This document shows positions 27,589-59,515 of a DNA stretch of 64,000 nt, one piece after another. The DNA lies in the IMG/VR virus record IMGVR_UViG_3300047510_002062, positions 3,705 through 67,704 of that record. One strand, given 5' to 3'. Each line of letters starts with the position of its first letter. Within the stretch, counting starts at the first letter, position 1. Source of the stretch: a virus. The notes under the pieces were generated by a model, which was not told the DNA's origin, did not search any database, and worked only from the letters and a program-made list of their open reading frames with translations. The position numbers were made by a program, and so were the translations under genes.

Positions 27589-27662
27589 TCGGGATGATAG
27601 GATTTGAACCTACGGCCCCTCGCTCCCAAAGCGAGTGCTCTACCAAACTGAGCTACATCCCG
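27589..27662 (-). tRNA. tRNA-Pro (TGG), no encoded CCA
   Basis: CGGGATGTAGCTCAGTTTGGTAGAGCACTCGCTTTGGGAGCGAGGGGCCGTAGGTTCAAATCCTATCATCCCGA folds as a cloverleaf. Confidence 0.95.
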
Positions 27663-27737
27663 TGGAGCCCCCTATCGGATTTGAACCGATGACCAACGGT
27701 TTACAAAACCGTTGCTCTACCACTGAGCTAAAGAGGC
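27663..27737 (-). tRNA. tRNA-Thr (TGT), CCA encoded
   Basis: GCCTCTTTAGCTCAGTGGTAGAGCAACGGTTTTGTAAACCGTTGGTCATCGGTTCAAATCCGATAGGGGGCTCCA. Confidence 0.95.
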
Positions 27738-27740
27738 AAT

Positions 27741-27820
27741 TGGGGGGCATCCGTATAAACTGGATCTTTTGTACTCCCCCCTTGTGTCTTAGGAGATAAA
27801 CACAACTGAATTGCAGTTGC
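27741..27820 (-). ncRNA. Putative structured small RNA/leader upstream of tRNA-Thr
   Basis: Hairpins CAACTG/CAGTTG, TGTGTTT/AAGACACA and GGGGGG...ATCC/GGAT...CCCCCC between a sigma70 promoter and tRNA-Thr. Confidence 0.45.
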
Positions 27821-27826
27821 TTAAGT

Positions 27827-27855
27827 ATCATAGTATATATTCAAAAATTTGTCAA
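27827..27855 (-). promoter_or_regulatory. sigma70-type early promoter TTGACA-N17-TATGAT
   Basis: Consensus -35, 17-nt spacer, near-consensus -10, upstream of tRNA-Thr/Pro. Confidence 0.8.
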
Positions 27856-27859
27856 GCCA

Positions 27860-28177
27860 TTAATCTTTTGGAATTAATTCTGGTCTATCAACTAAAACTG
27901 GAAAAAGGCATGGATGAACTTCTTCCATTATTAAGTAAGAAGATGATCTATGAAGTTCAGCAGGAGTATAAATTTTTCCGTTTTGATGCTTATCTGCATT
28001 AGCAATTAAAGTTGGGTCCCAAACACTAATCTCTGGTATATCATCAAATGTGTAAGGATAACCTTCAATAAAATACATTTTAACAATGTATTTGCTAGAT
28101 CCAGGTTCAGATGGATCATACCAACACCAATCCATGCTAACACTATATTTGTGAGACATAAAAACCTCTGTCAGCAT
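27860..28177 (-). CDS. Conserved cyanophage hypothetical protein
   Basis: IVKMYFIEGYPYTFDD...SSYLIMEEVHPCLFPV; late-type GATAAATA at 28185-28192 upstream. Confidence 0.7.
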   Translation of the reverse strand: MLTEVFMSHKYSVSMDWCWYDPSEPGSSKYIVKMYFIEGYPYTFDDIPEISVWDPTLIANADKHQNGKIYTPAELHRSSSYLIMEEVHPCLFPVLVDRPELIPKD

Positions 28178-28279
28178 ATGAAAATATTTATCGGGGGTTT
28201 TGATCGATTTTTTTGGCGGGATTTTTTACGACCCTAAAGTGATTTTAAAAGTTGATTTTTGTTGAAGTTTTTGTAAGAA

Positions 28280-28362
28280 TAGGACGAGGGGGACTTGAAC
28301 CCCCACAGGCAATGCCCGACAGATTTTAAGTCTGGTGTGTCTACCGATTCCACCACCGTCCC
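28280..28362 (-). tRNA. tRNA-Leu (TAA)
   Basis: GGGACGGTGGTGGAATCGGTAGACACACCAGACTTAAAATCTG...GGGGTTCAAGTCCCCCTCGTCCTA, long variable arm. Confidence 0.93.
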
Positions 28363-28375
28363 GTGTTGTAAGACA

Positions 28376-28404
28376 ATCATAGCAGGTCTTGCTTGGATTG
28401 TCAA
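28376..28404 (-). promoter_or_regulatory. sigma70-type early promoter TTGACA-N17-TATGAT
   Basis: Lies between the two tRNA-Leu genes, immediately upstream of tRNA-Leu(TAA). Confidence 0.8.
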
Positions 28405-28405
28405 G

Positions 28406-28486
28406 TGCCCCTGGTCAGATTTGAACTGACAAACCCGTAGGCGGTTGATTTTGAGTCAACTGTGTTTACCATTTCACCACAGAGGC
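28406..28486 (-). tRNA. tRNA-Leu (CAA)
   Basis: GCCTCTGTGGTGAAATGGTAAACACAGTTGACTCAAAATCAAC...GTCAGTTCAAATCTGACCAGGGGCA. Confidence 0.93.
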
Positions 28487-28490
28487 AAGG

Positions 28491-28563
28491 TGCTCCTTGA
28501 GGGGATCGAACCCACCTGATACCGATTATGAGTCGGGTGCTTTCACCAGATAGCTAAAGGAGC
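28491..28563 (-). tRNA. tRNA with CAT anticodon (likely Ile2, otherwise elongator Met)
   Basis: GCTCCTTTAGCTATCTGGTGAAAGCACCCGACTCATAATCGG...GGTTCGATCCCCTCAAGGAGCA; G1-C72 paired so not an initiator; C4-G69 and C5-G68 present. Confidence 0.9.
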
Positions 28564-58473: not shown

Positions 58474-58621
58474 TATCTTCTATGGGAAGTGATGAAAAAC
58501 TTTCAGTAACATTGAATTCTTTACCATTTAATTTATCTTTAATATCATCGAGCAACATTTTTTGCTCTTCCATCAGGAATTCAATTCTCTTTACTATGTT
58601 GCCAATATCTTGGAGTGCCAT
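58433..58621 (-). CDS. Hypothetical protein, 62 aa
   Basis: First ORF after the promoter at 58644-58672; acidic tail. Confidence 0.65.
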   Translation of the reverse strand: MALQDIGNIVKRIEFLMEEQKMLLDDIKDKLNGKEFNVTESFSSLPIEDSDDVEYYEPDGWN

Positions 58622-58643
58622 AATTCATAGAAACTACCATATC

Positions 58644-58672
58644 ATTTTACACAAAAAAAGTGGGGGTGTCAA
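58644..58672 (-). promoter_or_regulatory. sigma70-type promoter TTGACA-N17-TAAAAT embedded in a terminator
   Basis: The -35 lies in the hairpin loop, with a 17-nt spacer to TAAAAT. Confidence 0.65.
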
Positions 58673-58682
58673 GACCCCCACA
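58653..58682 (-). terminator. Rho-independent terminator
   Basis: GTGGGGGT-CTTGAC-ACCCCCAC followed by TTTTTTT. Confidence 0.85.
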
Positions 58683-58818
58683 TAGTTTTTTCTAACCATT
58701 CGATCATTGTAATTTCATAACATGACCAATATTTTACTCCCCTGTAAGTGCATAGATAACAAGCTGGTTTTCGGTCATCAAATTGAATGTAATGATATCT
58801 AACGTTATTATCGGACAC
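58669..58818 (-). CDS. Small peptide with DUF4278-like YRGVKY motif (49 aa from GTG; start uncertain)
   Basis: Manual translation (M)SDNNVRYHYIQFDDRKPACYLCTYRGVKYWSCYEITMIEWLEKTMWGS. Confidence 0.6.
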   Translation of the reverse strand: MSDNNVRYHYIQFDDRKPACYLCTYRGVKYWSCYEITMIEWLEKTMWGS

Positions 58819-58858
58819 TTCGCATAACGAATTATTTACTTTTTTTGATTGAACCAGT

Positions 58859-58990
58859 TCATTTTTTTGATACCTCGCAGTGTCCTGCCATGCAGAGTTG
58901 TGCTTTATGTAACTTCTCTTCTTTTTGTTTCTTCTCTTTAATCAATTGAAGAGCATTAAAAACATTAGTTGTTTTTGTTGCGACAGTCAT
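58859..58990 (-). CDS. Small basic peptide, 43 aa, directly downstream of the riboswitch
   Basis: MTVATKTTNVFNALQLIKEKKQKEEKLHKAQLCMAGHCEVSKK; AGGAG RBS 7 nt before the ATG. Confidence 0.7.
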   Translation of the reverse strand: MTVATKTTNVFNALQLIKEKKQKEEKLHKAQLCMAGHCEVSKK

Positions 58991-59026
58991 AATAATACTC
59001 CTAAAGTAATAAGGTTTACTGTTGTA

Positions 59027-59255
59027 ATCCCGTTCCTTCAGTCGGCTTTTGCGTCTATTTTACACTCCTTTGGAGATATTTGCTTTACTTCCCAAACCAA
59101 ATCATTTTTAATTTGTTTTGGTAGGGGATGAGCATTTACCCTAGAAACTATCAATTGTGCTTGTAAGCAAGTTAGTATGAGTGCTTCCATAGATGAACGA
59201 TCCGTTCCGAGTCGGCTTACTTGCGTTCGCTATTTGCGAATAGCGAATGAACGAC
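59027..59255 (-). ncRNA. Tandem glutamine (glnA-class) riboswitch-like aptamers
   Basis: GTCGTTCA-[TTCGCTATT-CGCA-AATAGCGAA]-CGCAAGTAAGCCGACTCGGAACGG, then ATCGTTCA-TCTAT...ATAGA-CGCAAAAGCCGACTGAAGGAACGGGAT. This matches the CGTTCA..ACG.AAGTA..GAAGGAACG consensus as recalled. Confidence 0.75.
59038..59190 (-). CDS. 50-aa ORF nested within the second aptamer
   Basis: MEALILTCLQAQLIVSRVNAHPLPKQIKNDLVWEVKQISPKECKIDAKAD*; ATG in the P2 5' strand, TGA in the GACTGAAGGAACG segment. Confidence 0.65.
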   Translation of the reverse strand: MEALILTCLQAQLIVSRVNAHPLPKQIKNDLVWEVKQISPKECKIDAKAD

Positions 59256-59261
59256 TGGTAT

Positions 59262-59290
59262 ATCATACCAAAAATATTTATTGATGTCAA
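59262..59290 (-). promoter_or_regulatory. sigma70-type promoter TTGACA-N17-TATGAT, with late-type AATAAATA in the spacer
   Basis: Predicted +1 at about 59255 coincides with the first base of aptamer 1. Confidence 0.8.
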
Positions 59291-59292
59291 GT

Positions 59293-59308
59293 TGTATAAT
59301 GTGATACA
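59293..59308. promoter_or_regulatory. Putative NtcA binding site TGTA-N8-TACA
   Basis: tGTAtaatgtgaTACa, perfect palindromic consensus abutting the -35. Confidence 0.6.
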
Positions 59309-59311
59309 TTT

Positions 59312-59515
59312 TTAAATTTCTTTATCTTTTAAATATTCATCCATCAATTCTTGAATGATATCTTTTCTTCCATCAATCTTATTAACTACGTGTAGATTAG
59401 ATTTTCTAAATTTTCTAAGTTTTTTATATTTTTTAATGAGTTTTGCCACCTCATCTTCTCTTATAATCGAGTTCAATTTCTGCTCTAATTCAGACTCTTT
59501 TTTAAATCCACTCAT
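59312..59515 (-). CDS. Hypothetical basic protein, 67 aa
   Basis: Overlaps the upstream gene by ATGA; operon context. Confidence 0.7.
   Translation of the reverse strand: MSGFKKESELEQKLNSIIREDEVAKLIKKYKKLRKFRKSNLHVVNKIDGRKDIIQELMDEYLKDKEI

What the first reader, a model, noticed from the sequence alone, without database searches (positions are those of the whole stretch)
58653..59308. Phage-encoded nitrogen-sensing module: NtcA box, sigma70 promoter, tandem glutamine riboswitch, small peptides, terminator
Seen in the sequence, in order on the minus strand: a perfect TGTA-N8-TACA box (59293-59308), TTGACA-N17-TATGAT, a predicted +1 at the first base of a glnA-class aptamer, a second aptamer, a 43-aa ORF with an AGGAG RBS, a YRGVKY peptide and a strong terminator. 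None of these ORFs is in the ORF track. Established knowledge: cyanobacterial gifB (IF17, a glutamine synthetase inactivating factor with a DUF4278 segment) is controlled by both NtcA and a glutamine riboswitch. Inference: the phage reads host N status twice (2-OG/NtcA and Gln) to control small proteins that may modulate glutamine synthetase or infection decisions. The box centre sits about -45 from the predicted +1, so activation versus repression is unclear.
Basis: partly seen in the sequence, partly recalled or inferred. Interest (0 to 1): 0.85.

Follow-up and report, generated by a model that had tools for sequence, protein, structure and literature searches.

The report
Phage nitrogen-sensing tandem glutamine riboswitch operon
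A cyanobacterial virus carries a small operon behind a host-type nitrogen-regulator (NtcA) site and two glutamine-sensing RNA switches, one of which has a small protein gene inside it, so the virus probably ties a few tiny proteins to the nitrogen state of its host.

Summary
Taken singly they are weak. TGTA-N8-TACA occurs 3 times in the window against 1.2 expected. Aptamer 1 scores 28.3 bits, under Rfam's cut-off of 35. Comparison with 90-odd related phage loci makes the module solid.

- A GTA-N8-TAC box lies upstream of the first aptamer in 58 of 65 distinct relatives (about 2% expected).
- The aptamer's P2 helix covaries.
- The operon ends in a conserved terminator.

Three corrections apply.

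1. Aptamer 2 is split. Its P2 loop holds a conserved 50-codon protein gene (N, 59190-59038).
2. The box keeps a fixed 13-nt distance to a TA(A/T)ATA hexamer in 42 of 62 contexts, not to the TTGACA/TATGAT promoter. That geometry is repressor-like (about -32.5). A minority of relatives have activator spacing, so the sign is open.
3. The DUF4278 (IF17-like) gene present in relatives is deleted in frame here. The glutamine synthetase link therefore rests only on relatives.

Verdict: a real phage version of the host gif-type circuit. It is a new variant of a known kind. What the peptides do is unknown.

The parts
59293..59308 (-). NtcA-type palindrome TGTATCACATTATACA (core GTA-N8-TAC 59307-59294)
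   Evidence: Sequence read. Three such sites occur in the window against 1.2 expected. GTA-N8-TAC is conserved upstream of the first aptamer in 58 of 65 distinct relatives. There are 34 distinct 14-mers, and the flanks give TGTA[T/A]CA..TACA.
59275..59280 (-). TAAATA hexamer (within AATAAATA), -10-like or T4-late-promoter-like, 13 nt after the box
   Evidence: The spacing TAC-N13-TA(A/T)ATA is found in 42 of 62 distinct contexts. The predicted start, about 59268, falls at the 5' hairpin. That it works as a promoter is inferred.
59262..59290 (-). Sigma-70-type promoter TTGACA-N17-TATGAT (TG-extended), with a predicted start near 59255
   Evidence: 11 of 12 positions match. TTGAC(T/A)-N17-TATAAT recurs by eye in relatives such as L001, L004 and L029. 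The start site is not mapped.
59255..59271 (-). Hairpin UUGGUAU-GAU-AUACCAG directly 5' of aptamer 1; it contains the -10 hexamer
   Evidence: 40 of 40 distinct long-spacer relatives have a hairpin here. There are 24 different 5' stem sequences, and TATAAT-like letters sit in the loop or stem.
59199..59255 (-). Glutamine aptamer 1 (glnA class): P1 59253-59249 with 59207-59203; P2 is the UUCGCUAU...AUAGCGAA hairpin
   Evidence: RF01739, 28.3 bits (gathering score 35), E 0.001 and 1.4e-5. Covariation in 48 related plain aptamers.
59029..59201 (-). Glutamine aptamer 2, split by an ORF: P1 59199-59195 with 59035-59031; P2 59193-59189 with 59058-59054; P2 extension 59184-59179 with 59067-59062
   Evidence: No covariance-model hit. 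RNAalifold on 57 distinct sequences predicts P1, P2 and the extension on its own. Third-codon entropy is 0.21 in the aptamer core against 1.11 in the ORF body, and the non-coding AGGAACG is nearly invariant.
59038..59190 (-). Nested gene N, 50 aa (MEALILTCLQAQ...KECKIDAKAD). The A and U of its AUG lie in P2. Its stop UGA lies in the aptamer core.
   Evidence: 84 loci carry open frames of 50-55 aa. Codon-position entropy is 0.48/0.22/0.90. It matches phrog_504 at E 1.4e-5, 201 protein clusters and 47 representatives in the profile search. The model is a helical hairpin, pLDDT 85.
58998..59041 (-). Linker / expression platform: CUGAAG (59041-59036, aptamer core) can pair with CUUUAG (59006-59001), which overlaps the ribosome site AGGAG (59002-58998)
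   Evidence: MFE folds of 52 distinct linkers. The helix is predicted in the window, L086, S-PM2, P-SSM2, S-SSM7, P-HM1, P-RSM6, P-SSM4 and Sf-CH3. This is an inference.
58859..58990 (-). 43-aa ORF made of the first 5 codons of the DUF4278 gene A fused to peptide B (LQLIKEKKQKEEKLHKAQLCMAGHCEVSKK)
   Evidence: Alignment with L086 shows about 134 nt (the body of gene A) missing in frame. It matches phrog_545 at E 1.2e-4. No Pfam or NCBIfam match.
58836..58862 (-). Mini-ORF MNWFNQKK; its ATG overlaps the stop of the 43-aa ORF (ATGA)
   Evidence: Read. Its counterpart MNFFGPKKQ sits at the same place in L086.
58669..58818 (-). Gene C, 49 aa, GTG start, with ...CYLCTYRGVKYWSCYE...
   Evidence: Four related loci at 64-79% identity, with starts ATG, GTG or TTG at the same codon. 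No Pfam hit for the window's copy. The C profile against the A profile gives hhalign probability 89%, E 2.1e-6.
58653..58681 (-). Intrinsic terminator (stem 58681-58660, then a T run). The stop codon of gene C and a TTGACA lie in its loop.
   Evidence: The stems covary in L086, L087 and L089.

Best explanation
This is a cyanomyovirus copy of the host's gif-type nitrogen-status circuit. An NtcA-type palindrome sits over the promoter region. The transcript starts at or just before a 5' hairpin and carries two glnA-class glutamine aptamers in tandem. When glutamine is low, the 3' core of aptamer 2 (CUGAAG) pairs with the sequence at the ribosome site of the first downstream gene. When glutamine is bound, that core is held inside the aptamer, the ribosome site is free, and the small proteins are made: B, then the mini-ORF and C by coupling.

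Aptamer 2 is unusual. Its P2 loop holds a real 50-aa gene, N. N's AUG lies in the P2 stem and its stop codon lies in the aptamer core. Translation of N and folding of the aptamer should therefore exclude each other.

My best guess is that NtcA (high 2-oxoglutarate, nitrogen stress) blocks the promoter that uses the TAAATA hexamer. The operon would then be expressed mainly when the host is nitrogen-replete, as the host gif genes are.

Shown here: the sequence elements, their conservation, covariation, the coding signature of N, and the deletion of the DUF4278 gene. Inferred: the start sites, NtcA binding and its sign, glutamine binding, the ON direction, and everything about what the proteins do.
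For: - Aptamer 1: RF01739 at 28.3 bits, E 0.001 and 1.4e-5.
- Related plain aptamers (48 sequences): 97.8% of cells paired against 87.2% in shuffles and 28-48% when the partners are slid. All 6 of 6 P2 pairs change on both sides.
- Aptamer 2: P1, P2 and a P2 extension are predicted de novo on 57 sequences. There is an RNA-level constraint on top of coding.
- Box: present in 58 of 65 distinct relatives against about 1.9% expected. N13 spacing to TA(A/T)ATA in 42 of 62 contexts.
- Hairpin: 40 of 40, with 24 different stems.
- Anti-ribosome-site pairing appears in the folds of 52 linkers.
- Relatives' gene A is DUF4278: L086 scores 25.7 bits against a cut-off of 25.3; three others score 21.0-23.3.
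- Literature, passages read:
  - The gifB glutamine riboswitch turns expression on, and NtcA represses gifA and gifB. A Prochlorococcus DUF4278 gene has both a riboswitch and an NtcA site (PMC6212724).
  - Repressive NtcA sites are centred at -30.5, -7.5 and -28.5 (PMC6316151). Activating sites are centred near -41.5 (PMC5714215).
Against: - Aptamer 1 is below Rfam's gathering score, and aptamer 2 gets no covariance-model hit.
- No start site is mapped.
- Relative to the strong TTGACA-N17-TATGAT promoter, the box centre is at -45.5. That is neither the canonical activating position nor an overlapping one.
- 9 of 62 relatives have 19-21 nt between box and hexamer, the canonical activator spacing. 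The sign of NtcA control may therefore differ between lineages or be wrong here.
- 7 of 65 relatives lack the box, among them P-SSM2 and P-RSM6 (one of the seven, L060, is cut off).
- The TAAATA hexamer may be a phage late promoter, which needs no -35 contact. Similar 7-mers are common in this AT-rich window: 53 on the minus strand, only 13 of them within 80 nt upstream of a called gene.
- No window ORF is a DUF4278 member.
- N has a weak ribosome site (GGA, 10 nt upstream), and there is no expression evidence for it.
Confidence: 0.72

Rival explanations
1. NtcA activates rather than represses, or acts on the sigma-70 promoter. The operon would then be switched on in nitrogen-stressed hosts, with the riboswitch as a counter-signal.
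For: 9 of 62 related contexts have the box 19-21 nt from the hexamer. That puts its centre near -40, the canonical activator position (PMC5714215 passages). Sullivan et al. 2010 proposed that NtcA sites promote cyanophage genes (PMC3037559 passages).
Against: In the window and in 42 of 62 contexts the spacing is 13 nt (centre about -32.5). Relative to TATGAT the centre is -45.5 here and about -50 to -57 in most relatives. Neither is a known activating position. Host genes with the same pair of signals are repressed by NtcA (PMC6212724, PMC6316151).
Confidence: 0.2
2. The palindrome is not an NtcA site. It could be chance, a site for another factor, or an RNA hairpin at the end of the upstream gene. 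Only the riboswitch would then regulate.
For: TGTA-N8-TACA alone is not enriched in the window. No binding was tested. Several versions are extended palindromes that could fold as hairpins.
Against: 58 of 65 distinct relatives keep GTA and TAC while the inner 8 nt vary, giving 34 distinct 14-mers. No T run follows the palindrome. The half-site flanks (TGTA, TACA) fit the published consensus (PMC6212724 passage).
Confidence: 0.1
3. Aptamer 2 is a dead relic broken by the insertion of gene N. Only aptamer 1, or neither, still senses glutamine. The conservation of the halves would reflect coding and ribosome-site needs.
For: No covariance-model hit. Part of the 3' half is coding (IDAKAD). L100 and L073 show that the halves can be lost while N stays. 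In L096, N is an ordinary gene at the end of the operon.
Against: The non-coding AGGAACG after the stop and the 5' CGUUCAUCU are nearly invariant in 57 sequences, while the next bases vary. P1 pairs in 56-57 of 57. In L097 and L102 the P2 stem around the ORF is 10-11 bp with different sequences, read by eye.
Confidence: 0.12

Closest known systems
Synechocystis gifB (IF17) leader: glnA-type glutamine riboswitch plus NtcA repression (Klahn et al. 2018, PMC6212724; Bolay et al. 2018, PMC6316151; passages read)
   Same: Both have a GTA-N8-TAC site in the core promoter region and a glnA-class aptamer in the 5' leader. Translation is switched on by glutamine. The downstream product in the phage relatives carries DUF4278.
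   Different: The phage has two aptamers, one holding a gene, and a 5' hairpin. The proteins are 28-55 aa and no IF7-like part was found by Pfam or NCBIfam. In this window the DUF4278 gene is deleted.
Prochlorococcus MED4 DUF4278 gene (WP_071812974 in PMC6212724; PMM1846 in PMC6316151; covered by the Yfr6 RNA) with a type-2 glutamine riboswitch and an NtcA site
   Same: A small DUF4278 protein under both an NtcA site and a glutamine riboswitch, in the phage's host group.
   Different: The host uses the Downstream-peptide (RF01704) aptamer. The phage uses the glnA type (RF01739). The only RF01704 match was S-PM2 aptamer 1, at 24.6 bits, below its cut-off.
Tandem glutamine riboswitches (157 doublets and 4 triplets; Sherlock et al. 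2022, PMC9481103, passage read)
   Same: Two adjacent aptamers of the same class.
   Different: That review does not mention phages or nested ORFs (0 occurrences of 'phage' or 'nested'). Here one or both aptamers carry a gene in P2.
glnA riboswitch annotated in cyanophage S-CREM1 (PMC9964418; record OP535465)
   Same: A homologous locus: box, tandem plain aptamers, and a fused A-B peptide.
   Different: There is no nested ORF there. That paper does not discuss NtcA or the downstream peptide (passages read).
uORFs inside glycine, cobalamin and YdaO aptamers of M. tuberculosis (D'Halluin et al., bioRxiv 10.1101/2022.06.01.494293, one sentence read)
   Same: Translated ORFs that lie within riboswitch aptamers.
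   Different: That report is a brief mention without a conserved protein family. Here a 50-aa family is conserved in more than 200 viral contigs and sits in the P2 loop.

Membership tests
Glutamine riboswitch, glnA type (Rfam RF01739) | Covariance-model score at or above the gathering score (35 bits) | tested here: not met
   Aptamer 1 scores 28.3 bits, E 0.001 and 1.4e-5. Aptamer 2 gets no hit. Relatives score 28.9-35.6 bits; 1 of 5 reaches the cut-off.
Glutamine riboswitch, glnA type (Rfam RF01739) | P1-P2-P3 architecture with the conserved junction (CGUUCA ... ACG[GC]AAGUA ... GGAACG), supported by covariation | tested here: met
   The full-length model alignment covers positions 1-53. In 48 related aptamers, 6 of 6 P2 pairs change on both sides and 97.8% of cells are paired. 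For aptamer 2, P1 and P2 are predicted on 57 sequences.
Glutamine riboswitch, glnA type (Rfam RF01739) | Selective binding of L-glutamine | not testable with these tools
   Needs in-line probing or ITC.
NtcA-regulated promoter | GTA-N8-TAC palindrome in the promoter region, conserved in homologous loci | tested here: met
   Window 59307-59294. Found in 58 of 65 distinct relatives against about 1.9% expected.
NtcA-regulated promoter | Activator geometry: site centred near -41.5 | tested here: not met
   The centre is -45.5 from the TATGAT-derived start and about -32.5 from the TAAATA-derived start. Start sites are predicted, not mapped.
NtcA-regulated promoter | Repressor geometry: site overlapping the core promoter (gif genes at -30.5, -28.5 and -7.5) | tested here: inconclusive
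   The 13-nt spacing to TA(A/T)ATA in 42 of 62 contexts gives about -32.5. This depends on that hexamer being a used -10 element.
NtcA-regulated promoter | 2-oxoglutarate-dependent NtcA binding | not testable with these tools
   Needs EMSA or a footprint.
DUF4278 / IF17-like small proteins (PF14105) | Pfam match at or above the cut-off (25.3 bits) | tested here: not met
   No window ORF matches at E up to 10. There is no match in the whole 67.7-kb record. Relatives' gene A scores 25.7, 23.3, 23.1 and 21.0 bits. Gene C against gene A gives hhalign 89%, E 2.1e-6, over 31 columns.
DUF4278 / IF17-like small proteins (PF14105) | Inhibition of glutamine synthetase | not testable with these tools
   No assay was possible, and no complex prediction was run.
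Intrinsic terminator | G+C-rich hairpin followed by a T run | tested here: met
   Stem 58681-58660, 8 pairs of which 6 are G-C, then TTTTTTT. The stems covary in L086, L087 and L089.

The most novel reading that the evidence does not exclude
The ORF-bearing aptamer may be a working 'ribosome-gated' riboswitch. The aptamer can close only around a ribosome-free N message. A ribosome finishing N at the UGA inside the aptamer core strips the strand that masks the next ribosome site. One RNA would then integrate glutamine and translation status, and could give reciprocal or sequential expression of N and of the downstream peptides. ORFs sit at the same place in the reference cyanophages P-SSM2, S-SSM7, P-RSM6, P-SSM4, P-HM1 and Sf-CH3. 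If these aptamers work, glutamine riboswitches are common in cyanomyoviruses rather than rare, and were missed because covariance models cannot bridge the inserted genes.
Probability: 0.35. Interest if true: 0.85.

Novelty: new variant of a known kind. Interest (0 to 1): 0.62.

Why it matters
Cyanophages depend on host nitrogen. A phage copy of the host's two-signal (2-oxoglutarate/NtcA and glutamine) circuit would show that they time a set of tiny proteins to the host's nitrogen state.

The loci also show why riboswitches look rare in phages. McCown et al. 2017 found only two glutamine aptamers in cyanophage genomes (PMC5473149). Many of these aptamers carry a gene in P2, and standard models miss them.

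The gene-in-aptamer layout is conserved in more than 200 viral contigs. ORFs at the same place occur in cultured phages. This gives a direct, testable system for how translation and ligand sensing interact on one RNA.

Tried and rejected
- Rfam at gathering threshold found only 5 tRNAs.
- Pfam, NCBIfam, PHROGs and the protein atlas gave no function for N, B or C.
- The AlphaFold model of N is a helical hairpin (pLDDT 85). It had no Foldseek PDB match at E up to 0.001.
- A pattern scan of 185,579 species genomes found no relative of N. The method needs conserved 8-mers, so this is weak evidence of absence.
- RNA evidence: the only two runs found were metatranscriptome contigs holding 5-6% of the sampled words. 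Laid on the stretch, they cover only the conserved aptamer parts. They include forms that skip 126-136 nt, which are relatives with plain aptamers and not splicing. They give no start site and no support for expression of this phage.
- The whole-leader MFE fold (z = -2.2) does not reproduce the aptamers and was not used.
- I first took a CGUUAU...AUAACG stretch at 58834-58806 for a decayed third aptamer. It is not conserved in L086 and has no covariance-model hit, so I dropped the idea.
- I suspected the 193-aa ORF between the aptamers of L085 to be a GIY-YIG endonuclease. Pfam gives nothing at E up to 0.01.
- The GTA-N8-TAC matches 5-6 nt before the aptamer in P-HM1 and P-SSM4 are the 5' hairpin itself, not boxes. 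P-HM1 has a separate upstream box.
- Homology of the nested ORFs of the marine reference phages to N is weak: E about 3e-4 for 3 of 6 in a 16-sequence search.
- No complex prediction was run, because I do not claim binding.

Not seen:
- Ames and Breaker 2011 is not held, so I cannot exclude that it mentions inserted ORFs.
- Supplements are closed. Weinberg 2010 Additional file 1, Klahn 2018 Tables S1-S2, Sullivan 2010 Fig. 1 and tables, and S-CREM1 Table S7 may list these loci.

Full report
**What the window is.** The window is part of a 67.7-kb IMG/VR virus record that CheckV rates 32% complete. It is a T4-like cyanomyovirus. A PhoH-like and a thymidylate-synthase-like ORF lie just downstream of the finding (these names are my reading of the translations and of the syntenic S-PM2 annotation). 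The only DNA matches to 58600-59350 in the phage collection are 35 Synechococcus, Prochlorococcus and marine-virus records. They cover only query positions 40-320, which is the promoter and aptamer part.

**Observation.**
- The box TGTATCACATTATACA is at 59308-59293.
- TTGACA-N17-TATGAT is at 59290-59262, matching 11 of 12 positions with a TG extension.
- A full-length match to Rfam Glutamine (RF01739) is at 59255-59199.
- A 43-aa ORF (58990-58859) follows AGGAG.
- A 49-aa ORF with YRGVKY is at 58818-58669.
- An 8-bp G+C-rich terminator is at 58681-58660.

Taken one by one these are weak. The box motif occurs 3 times in the window against 1.2 expected, and 16 of 100 shuffles reach 3. The aptamer scores 28.3 bits against a gathering score of 35, so it is missed at gathering threshold. 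Its E-value is 0.001 in the 1.2-kb search and 1.4e-5 in the single-family search of the whole record. The second aptamer gets no covariance-model hit.

**Related loci.** I collected the following:
- 11 annotated phage loci;
- 80 IMG/VR loci found with the nested protein, out of 201 confirmed stretches among 217 pattern matches;
- 4 loci found with the YRGVKY protein;
- 10 loci found with two distant relatives of N.

**The aptamers.** I aligned 48 distinct plain aptamers from these loci, leaving the window out.
- P1 (CGUUC/GAACG) is invariant.
- All 6 P2 pairs change on both sides.
- 97.8% of cells pair, against 87.2% in shuffles and 28-48% when the partners are slid.

This is a structured RNA of the glnA type. 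Rfam scores for five relatives are 28.9-35.6 bits.

Aptamer 2 of the window has a 5' half AUCGUUCAUCUAUGG and a 3' half AUAGACGCAAAAGCCGACUGAAGGAACG. In S-PM2 and S-CREM1 the second aptamer is a plain hairpin version (33.3 and 33.5 bits). By eye its CGUUCA start and ACGCAAA[A/C]GCCGACUGAAGGAACG end read the same as the window's halves.

On 57 distinct ORF-bearing versions, RNAalifold predicts three helices that close around the insert, without any guidance:
- P1;
- P2 (UCUAU/AUAGA);
- a further 6-bp helix (GCACUC/GAGUGU).

That extension keeps pairing through changes: at its outer pair G-U, G-C and A-U occur 26, 16 and 12 times, and one pair changes on both sides in one sequence.

**The gene inside the aptamer.** The insert is a real gene, N.
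- All 84 loci that carry it have an open frame of 50-55 aa (57 distinct DNA sequences).
- Entropy by codon position is 0.48, 0.22 and 0.90, the signature of coding.
- The last six codons (IDAKAD) are read from the aptamer core. Their third positions are almost frozen: 0.21 bits against 1.11 in the body.
- The non-coding AGGAACG after the stop is nearly invariant, while the next bases vary.

The 3' half is therefore under RNA-level selection as well as coding selection.

N matches phrog_504 (E 1.4e-5) and 201 unnamed protein clusters. A profile search gives 47 representatives at E up to 0.001, nearly all about 50 aa. None turned up in 185,579 prokaryote genomes. N models as a helical hairpin (pLDDT 85) with no informative structural match.

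The nesting is common but not obligatory:
- In L096 a relative of N is an ordinary last gene of the same operon.
- In L097 and L102 it sits in a P2 loop closed by a 10-11 bp stem. The stem differs in sequence between the two loci (read by eye).
- In L100 the aptamer halves are gone but N remains.

N thus belongs to this operon by more than position.

My tests agree with it.

**Cultured phages.** ORFs sit at the same place in well-known cultured phages.
- In aptamer 2: P-SSM2 (unannotated), S-SSM7 and P-RSM6.
- In both aptamers: P-HM1, P-SSM4 and Sf-CH3.

The annotated ones are 'hypothetical proteins' of T4-like gene clusters 429, 430 and 541. Their homology to N is only weak: E about 3e-4 for 3 of 6. 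22 of 82 IMG/VR loci carry a second nested gene of 67-68 aa in aptamer 1.

**The box.** GTA-N8-TAC lies within 90 nt upstream of the first aptamer in 58 of 65 distinct upstream sequences. The seven without it:
- L060, which is cut off;
- P-SSM2 and P-RSM6;
- L035, L083, and the pair L043/L050.

In the window the motif occurs 16 times in 64 kb, so about 1.9% of 90-nt stretches should hold one. The half-sites stay while the inner 8 nt vary, giving 34 distinct 14-mers. The flanks give TGTA[T/A]CA...TACA. This is what a site for a dimeric factor looks like, and it fits the NtcA consensus as quoted in PMC6212724.

**Its position.** The distance from the box to the aptamer falls into classes of 24-26 nt and 40-56 nt. 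The classes differ by an inserted hairpin. What stays fixed is the distance from TAC to a TA(A/T)ATA hexamer, often preceded by C. The counts over 62 contexts:
- 13 nt in 42;
- 9-12 nt in 11;
- 19-21 nt in 9.

In the window the hexamer is TAAATA (59280-59275). If it is a -10 element, the start is near 59268 and the box centre is about -32.5. That is close to the repressive NtcA sites of gif promoters, at -30.5 and -28.5 (PMC6316151, passages). Neither is the activating -41.5 (PMC5714215, passages).

The nine contexts with 19-21 nt have exactly the activator spacing, so the sign of control is not settled.

The hexamer also resembles the T4 late promoter TATAAAT that Sullivan et al. used (PMC3037559, passage). 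That cyanophages use CTAAATA as a late motif is my recollection, not a call result. In this window such 7-mers are frequent: 53 on the minus strand, 13 of them within 80 nt upstream of a called gene. That adds little.

**The hairpin.** In all 40 distinct long-spacer relatives a hairpin lies directly 5' of aptamer 1. There are 24 different 5' stem sequences, and TATAAT-like letters sit in the loop or stem. The window's version is UUGGUAU-GAU-AUACCAG (59271-59255). A stem that changes sequence but keeps pairing points to an RNA element. At least some transcripts should therefore start upstream of it, which favours the TA(A/T)ATA start. The conserved TATAAT with TTGAC(T/A) 17 nt upstream suggests a second, overlapping promoter.

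**Expression platform (inferred).** I folded the linkers of 52 distinct loci. In the marine group (window, L086, S-PM2, P-SSM2, S-SSM7, P-HM1, P-RSM6, P-SSM4, Sf-CH3) the aptamer core CUGAAG pairs with CUUUAG at the ribosome site. P-SSM2 has CUAAAG with CUUUGG. In the freshwater group an anti-ribosome-site hairpin (CUCUUU/AAGGAG) follows P1. There the core GAC...AGG also pairs with CCU..GUC around the start codon.

Both layouts fit a switch in which glutamine holds the core in the aptamer and frees the ribosome site, as shown for gifB (PMC6212724).

The stop codon of N lies in that same core. A terminating ribosome would therefore also free the site. This is the basis of the bolder reading in the section on the most novel reading.

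**The proteins.** In relatives the operon runs in this order:
1. gene A: two YRGxxY motifs. DUF4278 scores are 25.7 bits for L086 against a cut-off of 25.3, and 23.3, 23.1 and 21.0 for three others;
2. gene B: an ...IK..KL..AQL... helix, phrog_545;
3. in the window and L086, a mini-ORF (8 or 9 codons);
4. in the window and L086-L089, gene C (CYLxTYRGVKYWSCY);
5. a terminator with the stop codon in its loop.

The window aligns to L086 at 74% identity (542 of 728 aligned positions). It lacks about 134 nt, the body of gene A. Its 43-aa ORF is the first five codons of A fused in frame to B. No DUF4278 match exists anywhere in the record.

Gene C is conserved at 64-79% identity, with ATG, GTG or TTG at the same start codon. 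It is a possible distant relative of A: hhalign 89%, E 2.1e-6, 31 columns around the second YRG motif. It fails Pfam.

The glutamine synthetase idea therefore rests on the relatives' gene A and on the published, untested proposal for host IF17-like proteins. Nothing here shows what N, B or C do.

**Novelty.** The following are already in print:
- glutamine aptamers in cyanophages (PMC5473149: two found; PMC9964418; PMC9602691);
- tandem glutamine aptamers (PMC2864571; PMC9481103);
- NtcA sites in cyanophage genomes in general (PMC3037559);
- the NtcA-plus-riboswitch pair on host DUF4278 genes (PMC6212724).

In the held literature I found none of the following: the pair at this phage locus, a phage DUF4278 operon, or a conserved protein gene inside a glutamine aptamer. 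The nearest item is one sentence on uORFs inside M. tuberculosis aptamers (bioRxiv 10.1101/2022.06.01.494293). Ames and Breaker 2011 and all supplements were not available to me.

I file the finding as a new variant of a known kind.

Noticed in passing
L023, L024, L031, L067, L076 and others (e.g. L024:1250-1450); also L092 (P-HM1), L094 (P-SSM4), L095 (Sf-CH3): In 22 of 82 IMG/VR loci aptamer 1 also carries a nested gene. It is 67-68 aa with a hydrophobic, signal-peptide-like start (MTKALLLLAWVPLL...). P-HM1, P-SSM4 and Sf-CH3 each have ORFs in both aptamers. No family match was found.
   Followed up: partly
window 58644-58681: The terminator loop holds both the stop codon of gene C and a TTGACA. 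With TAAAAT 17 nt further on, that TTGACA scores 11 of 12 as a promoter for the next gene. The same triple overlap is seen in L086, L087 and L089.
   Followed up: partly
window 59195-59207: The two aptamers have identical P1 sequences. The 3' strand of aptamer 1 (GAACG) and the 5' strand of aptamer 2 (CGUUC), 3 nt apart, can form a small hairpin that would break both aptamers at once. The MFE fold shows it. It may couple the two sensors.
   Followed up: no
L085:909-1487: A 193-aa ORF is inserted between aptamer 1 and aptamer 2 in one relative. Pfam gives no family at E up to 0.01.
   Followed up: partly
L087, L088, L089 (about 870-960): These relatives have a single variant aptamer with P1 CGUUG/CAACG, in front of an operon that ends in gene C (A-B-C in L087/L088; B-C in L089). 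They still have a GTA-N8-TAC box and the 5' hairpin.
   Followed up: no
L100:560-900 and L073:1490-1662: These are examples of decay. L100 has lost the 3' half of aptamer 2 and most of aptamer 1 but keeps the box, N and gene A. In L073 the 3' half of aptamer 2 is mutated.
   Followed up: partly
window 27589-28563: A cluster of five tRNA genes on the minus strand.
   Followed up: no
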